From Candidatus Woesearchaeota archaeon (GTDB taxonomy: Archaea > Nanobdellota > Nanobdellia > Pacearchaeales > GW2011-AR1): DNA of 44,044 nucleotides. Where the stretch lies: NCBI GenBank assembly GCA_964617015.1, contig CAZTVG010000005.1, positions 1-44,044 of the forward strand, written 5' to 3'. The position numbers and the translations under genes are program-made. This document shows, piece by piece, positions 2,384 through 20,857 of this stretch. The notes below the pieces were generated by a model. That model made no database searches. It had not been told where the DNA came from and saw only the letters and a list, made by a program, of their open reading frames with translations. Each line of letters begins with the position of its first letter. Position 1 is the stretch's first letter.

Positions 2384-2617
2384 TTGCTGATTACCTTGTT
2401 GATTTGGGTTAACTTAGCGAGAACATCCGGAGAGAGATTGCCGTTCCAGATGTCCTGGGCAGTGAAGGTGAGTTTGTCCTTGGTGGGCATAAGGCATTAT
2501 TGCAGAGATAAAGAGGAGTTGCAAGATCGTTTGAACGAGGGTTGGCATTGGTTATATATGTATGCTTATAGCAGGGGTGGGGTGCCCATATATGGGGGAG
2601 GAAATCAACGCTAGTTC

Positions 2618-2640
2618 GTTTGAACGAATTTTAATCAAAC
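2618..2640. repeat. 23-bp dispersed pseudo-palindrome, copy 2 (divergent control region)
   Basis: GTTTGAACGAATTTTAATCAAAC, preceded by CTAGTTC; 2611-2639 is the exact reverse complement of 32917-32945. Confidence 0.9.
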
Positions 2641-2860
2641 AAAGGGGGAGGAGATACAAGGGGGAATTGTAGGAAGAGAGATGGGGGTTCCAAGGGTGTA
2701 CAATACTGTATAAATAATATTTTTTTTATCTCTTAGAAGGAAGAAGGATAATATCTCTTTCATCTATCTCATATTTTCTCCCTCTACCCTTGATTTCTGT
2801 TTACACACACGCACCCACCCCATATAATAATCATACGTACATACATGGATGGGTGAATAG
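2641..2860. promoter_or_regulatory. Divergent control region / strand switch, partly AT-rich
   Basis: Non-coding gap between - and + arms; TGTATAAATAAT (2707-2718) recurs at 43607-43618, each near a repeat copy. Confidence 0.45.
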
Positions 2861-3224
2861 TATGCGAAACATAGTTGATCTAACAGCAGAGGCTGTCAAG
2901 GGGATAAAGGGGGATCTATGGAATGGGGCCAGACAGAAGGAAGTAGCAGAGAAGTACAGGGTAACACAGGCAACAATCAGCCGTATTATGACTGGCAAGC
3001 TGCACCCGCATATCCCTTGGCCCGACGGCTCACTCGTGCAGATGTCTGGACATCAAAGGACAAGGATATATGAGGCAAGGTATATGGGGAGTGAGTTGAA
3101 GCCGGCAACTAACCTACCTCAGGCTGTTATAGATGACATGAAGACATCTATTGGTAAAGTCAGAGCGGAGAAAGCTGAGGAACGCACTAAGGACTTTAAG
3201 AAGATCTTCCCAGATTGGAAATAA
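2790..3224 (+). CDS. Cro/XRE-like helix-turn-helix protein (true start may be ATG 2862, MRNIVDL)
   Basis: GARQKEVAEKYRVTQATISRIMTG is a typical HTH; first gene of the + arm. Confidence 0.65.
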   Translation: MISVYTHAPTPYNNHTYIHGWVNSMRNIVDLTAEAVKGIKGDLWNGARQKEVAEKYRVTQATISRIMTGKLHPHIPWPDGSLVQMSGHQRTRIYEARYMGSELKPATNLPQAVIDDMKTSIGKVRAEKAEERTKDFKKIFPDWK

Positions 3225-3226
3225 TC

Positions 3227-3256
3227 GTTGACAACTTGCTTTAAATATGTCAATGT
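3227..3256 (+). promoter_or_regulatory. Sigma70-like promoter with TTGACA-N14-TGTCAA palindrome
   Basis: GTTGACAACTTGCTTTAAATATGTCAAT; 25/28 identical to 13896-13923. Confidence 0.65.
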
Positions 3257-3261
3257 ATCAT

Positions 3262-3391
3262 TGGCCTCTGCAGCATGACAGTGCTGGGGTAAGACCACAC
3301 ATGTTAGCGTGGTCCGTCGGACATCCCCCTGCCGGGTGAAATACCTGGAGTGGTAGATCGGTAACTGGGTGGGTAGCCCAGTCAGGGGCCA
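3262..3391 (+). ncRNA. Candidate structured RNA (closing stem plus four hairpins), family not recognised
   Basis: TGGCCTCTG/CAGGGGCCA closing stem; hairpins CAGCA/TGCTG, GACCAC/GTGGTC, CCGGG/CCTGG, ACTGGG/CCCAGT; begins at the predicted +1 of the upstream promoter. Confidence 0.6.
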
Positions 3392-3485
3392 CTTAACATA
3401 AGGAGAAGTGAACATGAAAGATAAGAAACCTCGCTAATACAAGACCATCCCCTACAAAACTGTTGAACCTTTCCTCCTCAACGCA

Positions 3486-3938
3486 ATGGCTGCGGTGGGA
3501 ATGGAGAGTGAAACAGCTCTCCTCTCAGCTCTGGGTTTGACAGGAAGCAGATGGAATGGTTGGAAGAAAAAGGGGGAGGTAAATGTGTACTGCCCCCTCA
3601 CCATCAAGGGTCTCCTCGCCGAGAGGGGGTTTACAGTAGGGCTGAAATATATTATAACGAAAGGGGATACGGTTGCAGCTGGAGGACAGTTGCACAGTCT
3701 ACTAGCCGAAAACCCACTTATTACAAGAAAACAGCAGGAGGTAACAGTTAGGGCCCTTGTTGCCAGTCTTGCAAGTGGCAATGGGATATGTACTGGAGAT
3801 CTTGAGATAGTGGCAGATGTAATCACGTCCCTCCTCGACAACCTCCTCAGGGTGCAACCCACCCCTGCGCCAGTAGGCGCCTCTGACGAGATCTACATAC
3901 CCAGTACAAGGAAAATGATTGAGGATCTCGAGTCGTGA
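3486..3938 (+). CDS. Hypothetical protein (150 aa)
   Basis: Long open frame; stop overlaps next GTG start. Confidence 0.6.
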   Translation: MAAVGMESETALLSALGLTGSRWNGWKKKGEVNVYCPLTIKGLLAERGFTVGLKYIITKGDTVAAGGQLHSLLAENPLITRKQQEVTVRALVASLASGNGICTGDLEIVADVITSLLDNLLRVQPTPAPVGASDEIYIPSTRKMIEDLES

Positions 3939-4135
3939 TTAACCGAGGTGGTTTCTCAACCAAGATCCTCGGTGGTCTTCCAGTTGAAATCTGGTATGAG
4001 ACCGAGCACGACTACTGTGATTTTACCATATACAGTGAGAAAAACGGCTCCCGTCTTAAGTGGGCTGAGAAGATGCTACCTGACAAAGAGGACAGGGAGA
4101 TAGTTGAGAAGTGCTTTAATCCTGAGCTTCAGTGA
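3935..4135 (+). CDS. Hypothetical protein (66 aa)
   Basis: GTGA-coupled to upstream ORF. Confidence 0.55.
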   Translation: MINRGGFSTKILGGLPVEIWYETEHDYCDFTIYSEKNGSRLKWAEKMLPDKEDREIVEKCFNPELQ

Positions 4136-4147
4136 GGAGAACCAGAC

Positions 4148-4312
4148 ATGGGCGAAATCGCAGAAGCAACGTTGTCGGGTCTCTTTTGTGAGTGGTGCGG
4201 TGAGGTGATCGGCGCGCTAGATGATGGACTGGGAGAGGAACCTGGATTTCCTCGCTTGTGCCCAGGATGTGAGCACGAAAAGGAGCTAAAGAGCAAAAGC
4301 AACTTGCCTTGA
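4148..4312 (+). CDS. Small zinc-binding protein (54 aa, MGEIAEATLSGLFCEWCG...CPGC)
   Basis: SD GAGGAG; two CxxC pairs; stop overlaps repeat copy 3. Confidence 0.65.
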   Translation: MGEIAEATLSGLFCEWCGEVIGALDDGLGEEPGFPRLCPGCEHEKELKSKSNLP

Positions 4313-4329
4313 ACGAAATTCGTTCAAAC
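4307..4329. repeat. 23-bp repeat, copy 3 (symmetric form)
   Basis: CCTTGAACGAAATTCGTTCAAAC; perfect 9-bp arms TTGAACGAA/TTCGTTCAA. Confidence 0.9.
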
Positions 4330-4810: not shown

Positions 4811-4870
4811 GGAGAGGTAGATGGTATATCAATTGGTCCTTGTCCGCCCATCGTCTACCTCTCCCTTTTT
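4811..4870 (+). terminator. Long-loop terminator-like hairpin
   Basis: GGAGAGGTAGA (4811-4821) pairs perfectly with TCTACCTCTCC (4854-4864), followed by CTTTTT. Confidence 0.55.
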
Positions 4871-4895: not shown

Positions 4896-5033
4896 TGGCC
4901 CCTGAGGCGTGGAAAGCAGACACGCACGTTCCTAGTGGAGGCCTATACCAGGCCGGGCTATTGAGATTAGGAGCGGTCGTCAAGCTAAGGCCTGCTGCGA
5001 GACGATGCCGGTTTAGCGCCCGGCCAGGGGCCA
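4896..5033 (+). ncRNA. Second candidate structured RNA with the same closing stem
   Basis: TGGCCCCTG (4896-4904)/CAGGGGCCA (5025-5033); internal GCGTG/CACGC, GGCCT/AGGCC, CCGGGC/GCCCGG, TCGTC/GACGA. Confidence 0.55.
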
Positions 5034-5052
5034 CCTGATTAGGAGGATGAGA

Positions 5053-5211
5053 ATGGGACAGGCTGCAGAGGACGAAATGGAGCGTGAGGAGATAGCCGCT
5101 GAAGCGGCGCGCGAGGAGCTGGCGGCGCACAGGGCTGGAACCTGTCGTAAAGACCCTGCGTGGTACGCTTATTGCGCCGCAGAACAAGGATGGTTCGACC
5201 ATGAATACTGA
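5053..5211 (+). CDS. Small acidic hypothetical protein (52 aa, MGQAAEDEMEREE...)
   Basis: Strong SD AGGAGG; overlaps start of 5201..5479. Confidence 0.55.
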   Translation: MGQAAEDEMEREEIAAEAAREELAAHRAGTCRKDPAWYAYCAAEQGWFDHEY

Positions 5212-11432: not shown

Positions 11433-12586
11433 AAATCTTGATTCTGGGTGGAGCTGGGTATTTAGGCTGGCCGAGCGCGTTGTACCTCGCAGCAAGGGAC
11501 CATGAAGTGGGGATAGTAGATAACATCGTGAAGGAGAAGTGGGAGAAGATAGCTGGTGTCAAGCCTCTAGAACCCTATGTTCTCATGGTCAATCGTATGA
11601 AGGCGTGGGATGAGCGGGAACGCTGGCTCCAAGGCATGAGTCATATAGGTATAGATATCAGCGCCGAGCCCGGTCTGCTAAGTAAGAATCTGCGCCTTCT
11701 CAAACCCGAAGTGATAATCCACTACGCAGAACAACCGTCTGCTCCTTACTCCATGATGAACGACTCTGCCTGTTATGAGACCCAAAGGAACAATATACTC
11801 GGTACACTGAATCTCATACTGGCTGTTAGGGAGTGTTGTCCAGACGCACATATTGTTAAACTGGGTACAATGGGTGAGTACGGAGTGCCTAATATAGATA
11901 TAGAGGAAGGCTGGTTGGATGTTGAATATAAAGGGAGAAAGGACAACGTACTATTTCCCAAGAGGCCAGGATCTTTCTATCACTTGTCCAAAGTGCATGA
12001 CAGCCATAACCTTGAGTTTGCGTGTAGGACATGGGGACTTAGGGTCACTGATCTCAACCAAGGTATCGTTTACGGAACAGGGACGGTGGAGACAGACTTA
12101 CATCCAAATCTCCGAACCAGTTTCCACTACGACCACATCTTCGGGACTGTCCTAAACCGCTTTGTGACAGAAGCCGCTCTGGAACTCCCCTTGACAGTGT
12201 ACGGAAGTGGGAACCAGAGGAGGTGCTTCATCAGTATACTCGACGTAATGAAGTGTATTGAGCTAGTCTGCCTCAACCCACCCGCACCTGGGGAGTTCAG
12301 GGTATTTAATCAGTTCACAGAGGTAATTTCCCTCAAGAGGCTTGCTGTTCTGGTATCTGGAGTTGCCAAGTGTATGGGTCTGACGGGGAGTGTGGCAAAT
12401 CTAGAGAACCCAAGAGTTGAGAGTGAGGACCACTATTATAACCCCTCCAACAGCTCCCTTCTAGGAATGGGACTTGAACCCCACGAGTTGTCGAGTGATA
12501 GGATTGAACAGATGATACACTTTGTATACAAGAGGCGGGAGCTGGTTAACACCTCAACCCTCAATCCAAGGGTGGGATGGAGGTGA
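11429..12586 (+). CDS. sqdB: UDP-sulfoquinovose synthase (SqdB/SQD1/Agl3 family)
   Basis: GGAGYLGW, HYAEQPSAPYSM, KLGTMGEYG, PGSFYHLSKVHDSHN, TDLNQGIVYG, FGTVLNRF are diagnostic of the family. Confidence 0.92.
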   Translation: MKILILGGAGYLGWPSALYLAARDHEVGIVDNIVKEKWEKIAGVKPLEPYVLMVNRMKAWDERERWLQGMSHIGIDISAEPGLLSKNLRLLKPEVIIHYAEQPSAPYSMMNDSACYETQRNNILGTLNLILAVRECCPDAHIVKLGTMGEYGVPNIDIEEGWLDVEYKGRKDNVLFPKRPGSFYHLSKVHDSHNLEFACRTWGLRVTDLNQGIVYGTGTVETDLHPNLRTSFHYDHIFGTVLNRFVTEAALELPLTVYGSGNQRRCFISILDVMKCIELVCLNPPAPGEFRVFNQFTEVISLKRLAVLVSGVAKCMGLTGSVANLENPRVESEDHYYNPSNSSLLGMGLEPHELSSDRIEQMIHFVYKRRELVNTSTLNPRVGWR

Positions 12587-13895: not shown

Positions 13896-13925
13896 GTTGA
13901 CAACTTGGGATAAATATGTCAATAT
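13896..13925 (+). promoter_or_regulatory. Sigma70-like promoter with TTGACA-N14-TGTCAA palindrome, second copy
   Basis: GTTGACAACTTGGGATAAATATGTCAAT immediately after the deaminase stop. Confidence 0.65.
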
Positions 13926-13953
13926 ACGTGAACATACAGAACACAGGTGAGAA

Positions 13954-15637: not shown

Positions 15638-15855
15638 ACAGAAAAATCACGTTCAACGTGTCAGAGGAGTTGTATCTGCGGTCCAAGGGGATGCCGTGGG
15701 GAGCGAGGAGTCACGTCCTACGCGCTCTCCTTGACCGGGCTCTCACCAGGGGGGAACAGCATGGAAGTCTCTACTATGGTGCTCTTATAGATGGAGATTT
15801 TGACATCACTTTTTTTGAACGAAATTCGTTCAAACTAAGTGGTGAACAAGAATGA
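15634..15855 (+). CDS. Ribbon-helix-helix (CopG/Arc-like) DNA-binding protein
   Basis: KITFNVSEELY...RSHVLRALL fits the RHH pattern; contains repeat copy 5. Confidence 0.55.
   Translation: MNRKITFNVSEELYLRSKGMPWGARSHVLRALLDRALTRGEQHGSLYYGALIDGDFDITFFERNSFKLSGEQE
15813..15835. repeat. 23-bp repeat, copy 5 (symmetric form, inside CDS)
   Basis: TTTTGAACGAAATTCGTTCAAAC; perfect 10-bp arms. Confidence 0.9.
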
Positions 15856-16647: not shown

Positions 16648-17887
16648 AGTAAGGGTTGGAAAAAGATTTCGAGAAGAGTTTGGAGAAATGGAGGCTCTAG
16701 CTGCCTCTATCAAGGAGAAAGGAGTTGTCCAGCCAATAGCGGTTGATGGCTCTCTAAACCTGTTAGCCGGAGGTAGACGGCTGAGGGCGTGTGAAATGGC
16801 TGGGTTGGAGACAATCCCAGCTATTATATTGGATATAGATGAAGGGGAACTATCGCAACGTGAGATCGAGTTGATTGAGAACACACTGAGAAAGGATTTA
16901 AAATGGCAAGAGCTAGCCGCACTTGAGGAGAGGATATTTGAGTTGCGGAAGAAGGAGAACCCGAAGTGGACTGAGCGGGACCACGCCGAACTCATGGGAC
17001 ACTCTCAGTCAACAACACACAGGCGTTTGCAACTAGCATCAGTGTCAAGGGCAATTCCAGAACTCGCTGCGTGTGAGACTGAAGATAAGGCGTGGAAGAC
17101 GTTTAGTAGAATACAAGAGGACATGGCCCTTAGACAGCTCGAAAAGACTATAGATCGGGTTGATGATCCGTCAAAGTGGGCGACTGAAAATTACAAGTTG
17201 GGGGATGCTGTAGAGGGACTAACAAAGGTATCAGCGGGCGTCATGCACCTTGCAGAGGTTGATCCCCCATATGGTATAGGATTAGACGAGAGGAAGAGTA
17301 GGAACATAGATACATCCCCTATGGCCCGATACAACGAGTTAAGTGGGGAGGACTATGTAGGTCTTATTGAGAGGGCATCTGCCCAGGTGTTCAGGATCCT
17401 CCGAAGTAATGCCTTCTGCATCTGGTGGTTTGGTATGACTTGGTATCAGGTCACAATTGATGTACTAAGGGATGCCGGCTTCAAGGTCAACGACACCCCA
17501 GCTATATGGTACAAAGGGAAGGCAGGGCAGACAGCGACCCCTGACACGATGCTTGGATCCTGTTACGAACCATTCTTCATCGCCAGGAAGGGGAAACCTA
17601 AAATGAGGAGGTCTGGAAGAGGAAACGTATTTGACTACCCTGCTCTGCCTCCTACAAGGAAGATACATCCTACCGAGAAGCCACTGGAGTTGATGGTTGA
17701 TATATTAGATACCTTTTCGTATCCGGGGTTTGTTATCGTGTCTCCGTTTCTCGGAAGTGGAGTGACATTGAGAGCGGCGTATAGATTGAGTTTAACTGGG
17801 TTCGGGTTTGACCTTGATGAGGTAACGAGGCTTAGGTTCATTGGGAGGGTTAAGGAGGATAGAGAAGGTGAACTCCCCCTCAACTAG
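16619..17887 (+). CDS. ParB/Spo0J N-domain + HTH fused to an N6-adenine/N4-cytosine DNA methyltransferase
   Basis: GVVQPIAV, LLAGGRRLRA, ELIENTLRKDL (ParB); WTERDHAELMGHSQSTTHRRL (HTH); DPPY, HPTEKP, PFLGSG (beta-class MTase). Confidence 0.88.
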   Translation: MKAKLVKVNEVRVGKRFREEFGEMEALAASIKEKGVVQPIAVDGSLNLLAGGRRLRACEMAGLETIPAIILDIDEGELSQREIELIENTLRKDLKWQELAALEERIFELRKKENPKWTERDHAELMGHSQSTTHRRLQLASVSRAIPELAACETEDKAWKTFSRIQEDMALRQLEKTIDRVDDPSKWATENYKLGDAVEGLTKVSAGVMHLAEVDPPYGIGLDERKSRNIDTSPMARYNELSGEDYVGLIERASAQVFRILRSNAFCIWWFGMTWYQVTIDVLRDAGFKVNDTPAIWYKGKAGQTATPDTMLGSCYEPFFIARKGKPKMRRSGRGNVFDYPALPPTRKIHPTEKPLELMVDILDTFSYPGFVIVSPFLGSGVTLRAAYRLSLTGFGFDLDEVTRLRFIGRVKEDREGELPLN

Positions 17888-19955
17888 TCCGTGGGACTTT
17901 AAAAGCCCCTCGACCCAGTGGGTCAGTGCGCGGGAGAGGTTTGAGAGGCTATACATACCCGAGCCTAACACGGGCTGCTGGATCTGGATAGGTGTATGTG
18001 AAAAGAAGGGTTACGGACACTTCAAGTTTGCCGGTAGAACCCTTAAGGCCCACAGGGTTTCATATGAGATATACAAGGGCCCTATACCTCATGGCCTTCA
18101 GATAGATCACTTATGTAGAGTCCGGTGCTGTGTAAACCCAGATCACTTGGAAGCAGTCACCTGTTGGGAGAACATCCGCAGGGGGGACACTGGAAAGGCA
18201 ACAGCGGAGGTGAGAAAGGCGCTGACCCACTGCAAACGCGGCCACGAGTATACTGAGGCTAACACGTATAGGAATAAAAGGGGAAATAGGCATTGTAAGG
18301 CGTGTGTCAGGGAGAGAGGAAGGGGGGGAGAGTTGTGCGTGATGATTTCCCCCTGGTGCGAGGGCGATCCTAGCTCGAAAATAGCCCTAGTCCCTGAGGC
18401 TCCTGGACGCACAGAGATGCGCGGGGGGAGACCCCTTATCGGGCCAGCAGGCAAGGTGCTAGATGAGTGCCTTCACCAGGCAGGGATTGCTAGACGCGCT
18501 TGTTACATAATAAATGTGTTCCCTGTTTGTGTTGATAAGGAGGGGGACGGTATCTATCTCAACGGTGATCTCCTTTGGAGCGGAAGAAAGAGCTTCACTG
18601 AGGAGGGGATGAAACTAGCTAATGAGACCCTGACAAAACTTCGGGAGTGTGGGGCGAATGTAGTTGTTCCACTAGGCGGTGTAGCGGCAGATCTCCTGTG
18701 CAACAAGAAGAAGATAATGAAGTGGCGTGGTTCTATCCTATGGTCTGAGGCAGTTGATAAGAAGTCTGTCTTGGCTTGCCACCCTGCTGCATGTCTCAGG
18801 GGCCAGTACACTCTCCGCTATATCATCATCGCTGACTTGAAGCGCGCACGGAAGGAGAGTGAGTCACCTGTATATAGTCCCCCTGACCGAAACCTGATGA
18901 TCGATCCCACATTCAGCGAGGCTATAGACTTTATGCGTGAGATGGGGGACTCTAAGAGAATAGCAACGGATATTGAGGTTTTAAACCACCAGGTCTCCTG
19001 CTTTTCTCTCACAAACAGCCCCGACTACGCTATGTGTATACCCTTTATAGATGAGGAGGGGGACCATAGATGGTCTGAGGATCAGGAGGCTGAGGTATGG
19101 CTTACTTATGCAGGCCTTCTCAGCGATCCAGGCATAATGAAGATAAACCAGAACATCGTCTTCGATATGGCGGTCCTCTATCAGAAGAACCATATCATCT
19201 TCCGTGGTCCCATAGGGGACACAATGGTCGCTCAGCACCTCATGTACCCTGACTTCCCTAAGGGGTTGGATTTCATTGCATCTATCCATACACGCGAACC
19301 ATACTATAAGGACGAGGGGAAGATATGGCTCAAACCCCACCCAGATATGCGAGAGTTCTGGGGTTATAGTTGCAAGGATAGTGCGGTCGCCCTAGACGCC
19401 TGGGGGCCACTGGAGATTGAGATGGAGGAGGGTGAGTACCGGGTCACGCACGACTTCACTGTTGCTATGTACCCCTCCCTTGTATACATGATGTCAAAGG
19501 GGATGAAGGTTGATAGAGAGAGATTGGACAAGACAAAGGTAAGTATTAGTAACAAGATTAAGGAAACTGGAGAGGCACTGGAACAGGCGGCAGAAAGACC
19601 ATTTAATCCTTTATCGCCTAAACAATGTCAGGAGTACTTCTATGTTACAAAGGGGATTAAACCATACATCAGTAGATCAACCGGAAACGTCACCACAGAC
19701 GACAAGGCAATGGCAAGAATCTACCGACGGTACAGCTTACCGGAAGCTAAGTTGGTTCAAGAGATCAGGGCGCTCAAGAAACTTTATGGGACTTATCTCG
19801 ATGTTAGGATGGATAATGATAATCGTCTTCGTTGTTCCTATAACCCTCGTGGTACTTGGACGGGTCGTCTTAGCTCTAGTGCGACTGTCTTTGGAACTGG
19901 TCTAAACCTACAGAATCTCCATCCCCAGTTCAAAAGTTTTCTGGTGGCAGGGTGA
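17841..19955 (+). CDS. polA: HNH endonuclease fused in frame to family-4 UDG-like domain, 3'-5' exonuclease and N-terminal half of family A DNA polymerase
   Basis: GCWIW...AHRVSY...IDHLCRVRCCVNPDHL (HNH); EAPG, GPAG, HPAACLR (UDG); DIE, NIVFD, YSCKD (exo); TWTGRLSS, NLQN (PolA). Confidence 0.9.
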   Translation: MGGLRRIEKVNSPSTSPWDFKSPSTQWVSARERFERLYIPEPNTGCWIWIGVCEKKGYGHFKFAGRTLKAHRVSYEIYKGPIPHGLQIDHLCRVRCCVNPDHLEAVTCWENIRRGDTGKATAEVRKALTHCKRGHEYTEANTYRNKRGNRHCKACVRERGRGGELCVMISPWCEGDPSSKIALVPEAPGRTEMRGGRPLIGPAGKVLDECLHQAGIARRACYIINVFPVCVDKEGDGIYLNGDLLWSGRKSFTEEGMKLANETLTKLRECGANVVVPLGGVAADLLCNKKKIMKWRGSILWSEAVDKKSVLACHPAACLRGQYTLRYIIIADLKRARKESESPVYSPPDRNLMIDPTFSEAIDFMREMGDSKRIATDIEVLNHQVSCFSLTNSPDYAMCIPFIDEEGDHRWSEDQEAEVWLTYAGLLSDPGIMKINQNIVFDMAVLYQKNHIIFRGPIGDTMVAQHLMYPDFPKGLDFIASIHTREPYYKDEGKIWLKPHPDMREFWGYSCKDSAVALDAWGPLEIEMEEGEYRVTHDFTVAMYPSLVYMMSKGMKVDRERLDKTKVSISNKIKETGEALEQAAERPFNPLSPKQCQEYFYVTKGIKPYISRSTGNVTTDDKAMARIYRRYSLPEAKLVQEIRALKKLYGTYLDVRMDNDNRLRCSYNPRGTWTGRLSSSATVFGTGLNLQNLHPQFKSFLVAG

Positions 19956-20857
19956 CTGACCACATCCTCATTGAGTTTGATAAGGTCAGCGCTGAATGGA
20001 TATGTGTAGCTTATCTCAGCAACGATGCCAGGATGCTTGACGTTGTTAAACAGGGGAAAGATCCACATTTGATAACAGGCTCCCTTCTTTCAGGCGCACC
20101 TGAGGAGCTGGTAGCAAAGGAGGATAGACTTGTTAGAAAAGCAACAGACCCCATCGAAATTGAACATCTCCGCTCGCGTCTCCCAGAACTCAACGATTAT
20201 TTCCTTCCCCGCGTGTACTCAATTCGCCAGATGGCGAAGAGATGTAACCACGCTCTCAATTACGGAATGGGTTATAGAAGGTTCGCGCTCGAAACTGAGG
20301 TTGATGAAACCGAAGCGAAGCGGATAGTCAACACGTACTTCAACCAGGCGTATCCTGGGATTAAAATCTGGTGGGGCGCGATTGAGGAGCAACTCCGCCG
20401 AAATGATAGGACACTTGTGAACTGTTTTGGGAGGAAGTGTCGCCTTCTGGACGCTTGGGGCGTGGAGCTATTTGAGAAAGCCAGATCGTTTCTCCCTCAA
20501 TCAACTGTTACTGATATGGTACACGAGGGGATGATTAAGTGCTTTGACGATCAGTCCAGGCCATTCAGACCACTAGAACTCCTAGAGGATGGACATGACT
20601 CCCTCCTTTACCAATATCCTGTTGGGAGATGGAGGAGTATGGCATTTGCGGTTGCCAAGATGGCCTTCGACTATATGAGTCCAGTGGCTATATATAGCAT
20701 AAAGGAGTTCAAAATCGACACTGAAGTTACTATCGGTCTAGACTGGGGACACATGGAGAAGGTCAAGATAAGTCCAAGATACGAAGATATAAATAAGAAC
20801 GCGGAGAACATAAGGAAAACGTGGGAGAGGCTCCGTGGCGAAGCGAAAGCTGCATGA
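19952..20857 (+). CDS. polA: C-terminal catalytic half of family A DNA polymerase
   Basis: Motif A EFDKVSAEW, motif B RQMAKRCNHALNYG, motif C GHDS. Confidence 0.88.
   Translation: MTDHILIEFDKVSAEWICVAYLSNDARMLDVVKQGKDPHLITGSLLSGAPEELVAKEDRLVRKATDPIEIEHLRSRLPELNDYFLPRVYSIRQMAKRCNHALNYGMGYRRFALETEVDETEAKRIVNTYFNQAYPGIKIWWGAIEEQLRRNDRTLVNCFGRKCRLLDAWGVELFEKARSFLPQSTVTDMVHEGMIKCFDDQSRPFRPLELLEDGHDSLLYQYPVGRWRSMAFAVAKMAFDYMSPVAIYSIKEFKIDTEVTIGLDWGHMEKVKISPRYEDINKNAENIRKTWERLRGEAKAA

What the first reader, a model, noticed from the sequence alone, without database searches (positions are those of the whole stretch)
3262..3391. Unrecognised 130-nt multi-hairpin RNA starting at a predicted +1
A 9-bp closing stem (TGGCCTCTG/CAGGGGCCA, one GU) encloses four hairpins with almost no unpaired filler. 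The 5' end coincides with the +1 expected from the upstream TTGACA promoter. I could not match it to tRNA, hammerhead or riboswitch consensus. It may be a new phage ncRNA, ribozyme or cis-regulator.
Basis: partly seen in the sequence, partly recalled or inferred. Interest (0 to 1): 0.65.

Follow-up and report, generated by a model that had tools for sequence, protein, structure and literature searches.

The report
tRNA-derived structured RNA in phage leader
The 130-nt element is a real folded RNA at the start of a phage early operon, built on a borrowed tRNA acceptor stem, and it changes far faster between near-identical phage strains than the DNA around it, though its function is still unknown.

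Summary
The described fold is present: a 9-bp closing stem with one G.U and four inner hairpins. Folding energy alone is unremarkable (z -1.7), so the case rests on other evidence.

1. A second element at 4896-5033 has the same closing stem, an unrelated interior and the same position 8-10 nt before a strong ribosome-binding site.
2. Near-identical strains differ by 10 bases in 1558. Eight of these lie inside the element. They include a G:C to U:A compensatory pair in the closing stem, and none breaks a helix.
3. The 7-bp core of the closing stem equals the acceptor stem of tRNA-Arg.
4. A member in a related phage (L093/L103) keeps a tRNA-Arg-like D-stem start and a canonical T-arm.

No Rfam family, tRNA finder or ribozyme model matches the element.

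My best reading is a tRNA-derived scaffold carrying variable cargo. It would be cut out of the operon transcript by tRNA-processing enzymes, leaving a stable small RNA and an mRNA with a short leader. The structure, the fast change and the tRNA ancestry are shown. The processing and any trans function are inferred. I class it as a new variant of a known kind (tRNA-like RNAs).

The parts
3228..3256 (+). Promoter-like site: TTGACA, 17 nt, CAATGT with TGT just upstream. It overlaps the palindrome TTGACA-N14-TGTCAA.
   Evidence: Read from the sequence. A near-copy lies at 13897-13926. The consensus scan does not list it because the -10 is weak.
3262..3391 (+). Element 1 (E1), the 130-nt tRNA-derived multi-hairpin RNA.
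   Evidence: Fold. Three haplotypes are known. Eight of 10 strain differences fall here.
3262..3270 (+). 5' arm of the closing stem: UG plus GCCUCUG, which is the acceptor 5' strand.
3271..3286 (+). Hairpin 1, in the position of a tRNA D-arm.
   Evidence: The strain change A3278G lies in its loop.
3293..3314 (+). Hairpin 2.
   Evidence: The strain change T3304C lies in its loop.
3327..3353 (+). Hairpin 3. An alternative longer pairing, 3324-3327/3360-3363 plus 3329-3333/3352-3356, is favoured in haplotype C.
3364..3382 (+). Hairpin 4, flush against the 3' arm of the closing stem, in the position of a tRNA T-arm.
   Evidence: G3376A turns a U.G pair into U-A, and T3374C lies in the loop.
3383..3391 (+). 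3' arm of the closing stem: CAGGGGC, which is the acceptor 3' strand, plus CA.
3400..3437 (+). Ribosome-binding site AAGGAG (3400-3405) and a 7-codon ORF, MKDKKPR (3414-3437).
   Evidence: Read from the sequence. It is invariant in all strains.
4811..4870 (+). Terminator-like hairpin with a T-run, just upstream of element 2.
   Evidence: Read from the sequence.
4896..5033 (+). Element 2 (E2), 138 nt. It has the same closing stem (TGGCCCCTG/CAGGGGCCA) and an unrelated interior.
   Evidence: The model built from E1 matches it only through the closing stem.
5041..5211 (+). Ribosome-binding site AGGAGG (5041-5046) and a 52-aa ORF (5053-5211). One strain carries a different gene here.

Best explanation
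E1 is a functional folded RNA on the + strand. It belongs to a small family of tRNA-derived scaffold RNAs in uncultured tailed phages. The known members are E1, E2, and one element each in metagenome contigs L093/L103 and L115.

All members share the same build:
- a 7-bp tRNA-Arg-type acceptor stem, lengthened by two leader-trailer pairs (U:A and G:C);
- a first hairpin 0-2 nt after the 5' arm;
- a last hairpin with at least a 5-bp stem, flush against the 3' arm like a T-arm;
- a freely variable middle (the cargo);
- a strong ribosome-binding site 8-10 nt downstream.

The most likely mechanism is inferred. The acceptor/T-type stacked helix would make the element a substrate for tRNA-maturation enzymes, RNase P at the 5' side and RNase Z or a similar enzyme at the 3' side. 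These would cut it out of the operon transcript. The products would be a nuclease-resistant tRNA-shaped small RNA and a downstream mRNA with a short, defined leader.

The cargo of E1 is under diversifying pressure, or is exchanged as a unit. This suggests that it meets a fast-changing partner, either a host defence factor or a specificity target.
For: Shown:
1. Two copies of the closing stem lie on the + strand of the window, against none expected. The same RBS spacing is seen in four members.
2. Strain contigs L025/L026 differ from the window at 10 of 1558 aligned bases, and 8 of these lie in the 130 nt of E1 (binomial p = 9e-8). The neighbouring 379-nt non-coding stretch has 0 differences (Fisher p = 1.5e-5). 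Strains L028/L030 have 2 differences in 6635 nt, both in E1.
3. G3263T and C3390A together turn G:C into U:A in the closing stem. G3376A turns U.G into U-A. The remaining changes fall in loops or linkers of the fold that was predicted from the window sequence alone.
4. The closing-stem core equals the acceptor stem of Patescibacteria tRNA-Arg(TCG). It also equals that of tRNA-Arg(TCT) and tRNA-Glu(CTC) in the co-binned genome.
5. L093e shares GCCCCTG-N-GGTG at its 5' end and GGTTCAAATCCTGACAGGGGC at its 3' end with that tRNA-Arg. ARAGORN with its intron option calls L093e tRNA-like at the default threshold.
6. L103 shares ParB and DNA-polymerase homologues in the same order with the window.
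7. Five G.U pairs, the promoter and RBS context, and the T-arm polarity of L093e all set the + strand.

Precedents:
- The phage P1/P7 C4 RNA is cut from a longer operon transcript by RNase P, and 4 nt of loop change alter its specificity (PMC5320573).
- Papers listed, known to me but not read here, describe leader-trailer pairing in the MALAT1 tRNA-like element (PMC8457004) and the engineered tRNA scaffold (PMC3753655).
Against: - E1 itself lacks a T-loop, a D-loop GG and an anticodon arm. Neither ARAGORN nor Rfam sees it.
- Its tRNA ancestry rests on the 7-bp stem plus inference from relatives, and those relatives were found with a pattern that demanded the same stem.
- Fold energy is not significant.
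- 14% of random 8-substitution variants fold as well as haplotype C.
- No RNA data exist to show a discrete processed species.
- E2 shows no excess variation in the strains available.
- Only three or four distinct members are known. None was found in IMG/VR. Among 401 Patescibacteria genomes there was one match, which looks like a chance hit.
Confidence: 0.45

Rival explanations
1. E1 is a purely cis-acting 5' leader module. The compact fold stays attached to the mRNA. It protects the mRNA from 5'-end-dependent decay or presents the adjacent ribosome-binding site. It is not excised and has no trans role.
For: - All four members sit 8-10 nt before a strong RBS.
- E1 begins at the predicted +1.
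- No terminator follows the element.
Against: - It does not explain why the stem sequence matches a tRNA acceptor stem across different phages.
- It does not explain why loops change more than 10 times faster than the flanking non-coding DNA.
- E2 and L115e lie inside transcripts, after hairpins, and not at a 5' end.
Confidence: 0.2
2. E1 is a C4-like or CI-like regulatory RNA. It would be cut from the operon transcript and would pair through its loops with target sites, setting immunity or exclusion specificity. The strain variants would then be specificity alleles.
For: - The layout is the same as for P1 c4: promoter, structured RNA, RBS, short ORF, gene.
- Variation is concentrated in loops.
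- Hairpin 2's loop has 7-8-nt matches to 3393-3399 and 3431-3438 (my reading of the sequence).
Against: - There is no match to the Rfam C4 model.
- Complementarity between E1 and its leader is no better than for shuffled sequence.
- The loop change T3304C has no compensating change in the identical leader of haplotype C.
- No integrase or lysogeny module was found in the ORFs I annotated.
Confidence: 0.12
3. E1 is a degenerate or insert-bearing tRNA-Arg gene. It could be a decaying relic. Alternatively it could be a true tRNA whose roughly 55-60-nt insert is removed.
For: - ARAGORN with its intron option reads L093e as a tRNA. At a lowered threshold it reads E2 as tRNA-Arg(CCU), with UUCCUAG as the anticodon loop.
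- The acceptor stem is identical to that of tRNA-Arg.
Against: - E1 and L115e give no tRNA call at any setting.
- In E2 the proposed 5' splice site lies inside a continuous 10-bp helix, not in a bulge-helix-bulge (and my reading of it).
- No splicing route for such inserts is known in bacteria.
- A relic would not keep a compensatory pair or avoid breaking helices.
Confidence: 0.08
4. E1 is a DNA-level element. The 9-bp inverted repeats would be sites for inversion or cassette exchange, or a single-strand DNA structure such as an origin.
For: - The repeats are perfect in E2.
- A paired change in both arms is also what a DNA inverted repeat would show.
- Variation is bounded exactly by the arms.
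- A gene swap begins right after E2's RBS in strain L031.
Against: - All six independent records carry E1 in one orientation.
- The arms of E1 have a T/C mismatch that is a G.U pair only in + strand RNA, and four more G.U pairs lie inside the element.
- No recombinase was found near the element.
- The inner hairpins and the T-arm of L093e have no role in an inverton.
Confidence: 0.05
5. E1 is a chance fold of a GC-rich spacer and has no function.
For: z = -1.68 only, and the random-substitution test gives p = 0.14.
Against: - A second copy of the stem exists.
- The closing stem shows a compensatory change.
- The excess of variation is extreme.
- Related phages carry tRNA-like relatives.
Confidence: 0.04

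Closest known systems
tRNA, specifically tRNA-Arg of Patescibacteria and of the co-binned archaeon
   Same: The 7-bp acceptor stem GCCCCUG/CAGGGGC is identical in E2 and differs by one U.G in E1. The overall shape is a class-II-like five-helix cloverleaf. The relative L093e keeps the start of the D-stem and a canonical T-arm.
   Different: E1 is 130 nt long. It has no T-loop, no D-loop GG, no anticodon arm and no CCA. Two extra pairs lengthen the stem. No tRNA finder detects it.
C4 antisense RNA of phages P1/P7 (Rfam C4 family) and P4 CI RNA
   Same: A phage RNA at the head of an operon, cut from a longer transcript by RNase P. Changes of a few nucleotides in its loops distinguish strains (PMC5320573).
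   Different: C4 is about 77 nt with three stem-loops. There is no model match and no significant target in E1's own leader. No lysogeny genes were seen.
tRNA-like processing signals: plant mitochondrial t-elements and the MALAT1 mascRNA
   Same: An acceptor/T-type stacked helix embedded in a longer transcript. The leader and trailer pair with each other. The proposed cutting is by RNase P and RNase Z (PMC8457004 listed; the rest is from my own knowledge).
   Different: Those are eukaryotic or organellar and of tRNA size. No bacteriophage example that sits before a ribosome-binding site is known to me.
Engineered tRNA scaffold for RNA expression (Ponchon and Dardel)
   Same: Cargo RNA replaces the anticodon arm, while the acceptor, D and T arms are kept. 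L093e has exactly this layout (PMC3753655 listed).
   Different: That is a laboratory design, not a natural element. E1, E2 and L115e lack the D-loop and T-loop elbow.
Bacterial Y RNA (YrlA) and phage T4 species 1 and 2 stable RNAs
   Same: They are 100-140 nt, have paired ends, carry tRNA-like parts, and some are phage-encoded (PMC4201824 listed; the T4 RNAs are from memory).
   Different: There is no Rfam match. I did not look for a Ro/Rsr partner. E1 has no T-loop.

Membership tests
tRNA (Rfam RF00005 / ARAGORN) | A 7-bp acceptor stem that closes the molecule. | tested here: met
   The core of the closing stem is GCCUCUG/CAGGGGC. The E2 version is identical to tRNA-Arg and tRNA-Glu acceptor stems.
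tRNA (Rfam RF00005 / ARAGORN) | A T-arm with a 5-bp stem and a 7-nt GTTCRANYC-type loop, next to the acceptor 3' strand. | tested here: not met
   E1's hairpin 4 has 7 bp and the loop GGGUA. The feature is met only in the relative L093e, TCAGG-TTCAAAT-CCTGA.
tRNA (Rfam RF00005 / ARAGORN) | A D-loop with G18 G19, an anticodon arm with U33, and a size of 70-95 nt. | tested here: not met
   Hairpin 1's loop is GACA. No 5-bp stem with a 7-nt anticodon-type loop is present. The element is 130 nt.
tRNA (Rfam RF00005 / ARAGORN) | Detection by tRNA models. | tested here: not met
   ARAGORN finds nothing with default settings, the intron option or a lowered threshold. Rfam finds nothing at E<=10.
C4 antisense RNA (P1/P7) | A match to the family's covariance model. 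| tested here: not met
   cmscan at E<=10 on 3100-3550 lists no C4 hit.
C4 antisense RNA (P1/P7) | Loops complementary to sites around the downstream RBS. | tested here: not met
   Duplex energy with the leader is no better than with shuffles. The loop change in haplotype C is not compensated.
C4 antisense RNA (P1/P7) | 5' end made by RNase P. | not testable with these tools
   This needs an enzyme assay or RNA end mapping. The run-finding tool (look-up of sequencing runs) was closed, so read laying could not be used.
tRNA-like processing signal (t-element / mascRNA type) | A coaxial acceptor/T-type helix of at least 12 bp, with the last hairpin flush to the 3' strand. | tested here: met
   The stack is 9+7 bp in E1 and 9+5 bp in E2, L093e and L115e, with no spacer nucleotide in any of them.
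tRNA-like processing signal (t-element / mascRNA type) | Cleavage by RNase P and RNase Z in the cell. | not testable with these tools
   No RNA data were available.
Self-cleaving ribozymes in Rfam (hammerhead, twister, hatchet, pistol, HDV-like) | A match to a family model with the conserved catalytic core. | tested here: not met
Riboswitch | An invariant ligand-binding junction core. | tested here: not met
   Junction bases 3291, 3325 and 3354 differ between strains that are otherwise 99.9% identical. There is no Rfam hit.
Invertible DNA segment | Both orientations present in the population, and a recombinase gene nearby. | tested here: not met
   Six records all show one orientation. No recombinase was found among the neighbouring genes. 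Read-level data were not available.
Bacterial Y RNA (YrlA) | A Ro-binding stem, a tRNA-like T/D domain, and a linked rsr gene. | tested here: inconclusive
   There is no Rfam match. I did not search the phage for an rsr gene.

The most novel reading that the evidence does not exclude
Phages use a natural tRNA scaffold. A borrowed host tRNA acceptor/T frame would get arbitrary cargo RNAs cut out and stabilised by the host's own tRNA-processing enzymes. The cargo of E1 would be an arms-race molecule: a decoy for, or a target of, a host factor that recognises tRNA or RNA. That would explain why it diversifies as a unit while the rest of the genome stays fixed.
Probability: 0.2. Interest if true: 0.8.

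Novelty: new variant of a known kind. Interest (0 to 1): 0.6.

Why it matters
If confirmed, this would be a natural phage counterpart of the tRNA scaffold. It would also be a bacterial-virus example of tRNA-like punctuation of operon transcripts.

The element is the most variable spot in an otherwise nearly clonal phage population. Such a spot marks a molecule under direct selective pressure, so it is a good place to look for an RNA-level contest between phage and host.

The idea is cheap to test with RNase P and RNase Z assays on a 250-nt transcript, or with small-RNA sequencing.

Tried and rejected
1. Rfam at gathering and permissive thresholds, and ARAGORN, gave nothing for E1.
2. Homologues through the flanking proteins: the two flanking proteins searched found no relatives in IMG/VR, and the 150-aa downstream protein has only a 99%-identical variant in the large protein set.
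3. Related phages found through terminase and exonuclease genes (L004-L015, L039, L040) hold no look-alike, by regex, stem-plus-RBS scan or covariance model.
4. Patterns anchored on the flanks, meant to collect more E1 alleles, found nothing.
5. The nine IMG/VR hits to the stem pattern were chance hits in GC-rich DNA that looks coding; I confirmed an ORF only for L016.
6. A sliding energy scan did not single out E1.
7. A shared interior motif among the four members is not significant.
8. A loop-loop pair A17:U43 to G17:C43 looks compensatory. It was found after the fact, and my rough estimate of its chance probability is about 0.3, so I make no claim.
9. A DGR-type mechanism is rejected. I found no reverse transcriptase in the ORFs annotated, no second copy of E1, and changes are not specific to adenines.
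10. An archaeal virus of the co-binned DPANN genome is rejected. The contig is 50.6% GC against 34% for the rest of the bin, it has 11/12 sigma-70 promoter matches, and it has a GH108 peptidoglycan lysin.

Full report
**What is there.** Window 3262-3391 (+) reads TGGCCTCTG...CAGGGGCCA. Its best fold is -56.6 kcal/mol. It has a 9-bp closing stem with one U.G pair and four hairpins, at 3271-3286, 3293-3314, 3327-3353 and 3364-3382. About 40% of bases are unpaired, so 'almost no filler' is too strong.

The energy is not special. The z-score is -1.68, and 14 of 200 shuffles fold as well. The opposite strand folds with z = -3.1. ARAGORN finds no tRNA in the window. Rfam 15 finds nothing at gathering scores, and nothing relevant at E<=10.

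**Setting.** The window is a complete 44-kb contig (C5) with tailed-phage genes. These include an HTH regulator just upstream, Sak4, DNA polymerase, primase and a lysin. The lysin has GH108 and a peptidoglycan-binding domain.

C5 is 50.6% GC inside a bin whose other contigs are about 34%. Two promoter matches score 11 of 12 against the sigma-70 consensus. Together with the lysin, this points to a bacterial host and a mis-binned contig.

The element follows TTGACA (3228-3233), 17 nt, then CAATGT with TGT upstream. That places +1 at about 3262-3264. The -10 is too weak for the scanner. A near-copy of the promoter lies at 13897-13926.

After the element come 8 nt, AAGGAG, and a 7-codon ORF at 3414-3437. 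A 150-aa ORF of unknown function follows.

**A second copy of the frame.** I confirmed it. It has the closing stem TGGCCCCTG/CAGGGGCCA, four inner hairpins, -65.5 kcal/mol and z = -2.9. It lies after a terminator-like hairpin (4811-4870) and 7 nt before AGGAGG and a 52-aa ORF.

The stem pattern is expected zero times in shuffles of the window. A covariance model built from E1 matches E2 only through the closing stem, at 13 bits with the interior skipped. The frame is shared and the interior is not.

**Strain variation.** Contigs that encode identical or 99%-identical flanking proteins give three E1 haplotypes.

| Comparison with the window | Aligned bases | Differences | Differences inside E1 |
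|---|---|---|---|
| L025/L026 (haplotype C) | 1558 | 10 | 8 |
| L028/L030 | 6635 (L028) | 2 in L028; 3 in L030 | 2 (3374 and 3376) |

- For L025/L026 the binomial p is 9e-8. The adjoining 379-nt non-coding stretch has no change (Fisher p = 1.5e-5).
- For L028/L030, two of two differences falling in E1 gives p = 4e-4.
- The outermost changes in haplotype C are at positions 2 and 129 of the 130-nt element. The variable unit is therefore the element itself.
- Those two changes (G3263T, C3390A) convert G:C to U:A in the closing stem. G3376A converts U.G to U-A in hairpin 4.
- The remaining changes lie in loops or linkers of the fold predicted from the window alone.
- My rough estimates are about 0.05 for a chance compensatory pair and about 0.01-0.02 for six further changes all sparing helices.
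- A cruder test is weaker: 14% of random 8-substitution variants fold as well.

E2 is invariant in the strains available. In strain L031, however, the gene after E2 is replaced, starting right after the ribosome-binding site.

**Relatives and the tRNA link.** A metagenome scan for the stem plus GGAG within 5-15 nt gave 78 hits, about the number I estimated chance would give. I then filtered for four features: forced closing stem, first hairpin within 2 nt, last hairpin flush, and at least three branches with an RBS and start codon. Four hits passed. Two lie in GC-rich DNA under long open frames. The other two are L093e and L115e.

- L093e is identical in L103. L103 shares ParB, methyltransferase and DNA-polymerase homologues in the same order with window 16.6-19.8 kb. 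It is followed by AGGAGG and a 62-aa ORF; a ParB gene lies further downstream.
- L093e's last hairpin is TCAGG-TTCAAAT-CCTGA, a canonical T-arm, directly followed by CAGGGGC. Its first hairpin has GG in a 7-nt loop.
- ARAGORN with its intron option calls L093e tRNA-like at the default threshold. It calls E2 only at a lowered threshold, as tRNA-Arg(CCU) with a 55-nt insert. It never calls E1 or L115e.
- L115e comes from a groundwater contig that carries a RecT gene. It is followed by AGGAG and an HNH endonuclease gene.

I scanned species genomes for GGTTCRAATCCTGACAGGGGC and found five hits. Four are in Patescibacteria. Four of the five lie in genes ARAGORN calls tRNA-Arg(TCG); the fifth, in L123, lies in no called tRNA. 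The three with a fully matching stem read GCCCCTGTGGTG...GGTTCAAATCCTGACAGGGGCA.

The core of the closing stem is therefore a tRNA-Arg acceptor stem. The co-binned genome's tRNA-Arg(TCT) and tRNA-Glu(CTC) have the same stem. In the elements, the base after the stem is C, not the tRNA's A73, and it pairs with the G before the stem. The next A pairs with U. This is a 2-bp leader-trailer extension, and it is exactly the pair that covaries in haplotype C.

In all four members the ribosome-binding site GGAG starts 8-10 nt after the stem.

**What it most likely does.** Four things are shown:
- a selected RNA structure on the + strand;
- a tRNA-derived frame shared by different phages;
- a variable interior;
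- in E1, change far above the local background.

The following is inferred. The acceptor/T-type stack makes the element a substrate for RNase P and a 3' tRNA-processing nuclease. These cut it from the operon transcript. The result is a stable tRNA-shaped RNA carrying the cargo and an mRNA with a short leader.

E2 and L115e lie inside transcripts, after hairpins. This fits a punctuation role better than a pure 5'-cap role.

P1/P7 C4 RNA is a precedent. It is a phage RNA cut from an operon transcript by RNase P, and loop changes of a few nucleotides alter its specificity (PMC5320573). The excess change in E1 suggests that the cargo meets a fast-changing partner. I cannot say which.

**Rivals.**
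- A cis-only leader stabiliser explains the RBS coupling. It does not explain the tRNA stem or the variation.
- A C4-like regulator fits the layout. But there is no model match, no significant complementarity to its own leader and no compensating change.
- A true or decaying tRNA gene fails for E1.
- A DNA inverted-repeat element is disfavoured. The arms contain a G.U pair that works only in RNA. All six records have the same orientation. No recombinase is nearby.
- Chance is excluded by the second copy, the covariation and the relatives.

**Limits.**
- The family was found with a pattern that fixed the stem sequence, so its conservation cannot be measured.
- Only three or four distinct members exist. 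IMG/VR gave none. Of 401 Patescibacteria genomes, one gave a match, which looks like a chance hit.
- The host is unknown.

Noticed in passing
window 5051-5207 versus L031:644-873: In one strain the 52-aa gene after E2 is replaced by an unrelated 74-aa gene. The swap starts right after the ribosome-binding site and ends at the next gene's start. E2 plus its RBS may therefore act as a conserved junction for gene exchange.
   Followed up: partly
window 17841-20857: The DNA polymerase is split over two ORFs. The first ORF begins with an HNH endonuclease domain (residues 29-161) before the polymerase part. This could be an intron, an intein or a homing-endonuclease insertion.
   Followed up: no
window 4310-4328, 15817-15836, and a related copy at 2612-2630: The palindrome TTGAACGAAATTCGTTCAA recurs at operon boundaries. 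It could be an operator or a terminator without a T-run.
   Followed up: no
whole contig (G000:C5) versus the rest of the bin: The window is 50.6% GC and the other 23 contigs are about 32-44%. It has sigma-70-type promoters and a GH108 peptidoglycan lysin. This phage of a bacterium was probably mis-binned with a DPANN archaeon.
   Followed up: partly
window 1425: The strain in ERZ23500256 carries a 9-nt insertion (ACGGTTGAA) here. It is the only difference across 10 kb.
   Followed up: no
window 3319-3348: The 44,107-nt Logan contig of SRR12068623 has both of its ends inside E1, with a 30-nt overlap. Either the assembler opened the circle there, or the graph broke at the polymorphic element.
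   Followed up: no
L025:1559-1979: The last 420 nt of this variant contig are AT-rich and unrelated to the phage. This is probably a chimeric join, so haplotype C is known only for window 2483-4050.
   Followed up: partly
window 12451-12544, minus strand: A T-arm-like string (GGGGTTCAAGTCCC) lies within an 8-bp-closed, 94-nt fold opposite the SqdB-like gene. The fold is weak (-22 kcal/mol) and it is probably chance.
   Followed up: no
L105, L110 and L116 (metagenome contigs): An identical 133-nt, very stable hairpin element (-74 kcal/mol) has the same TGGCCCCTG/CAGGGGCCA ends. It is embedded among repeated GGTACC- and TAGGCCATT-type motifs and has no RBS after it. It may be a different repeat family that uses the same termini.
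   Followed up: no
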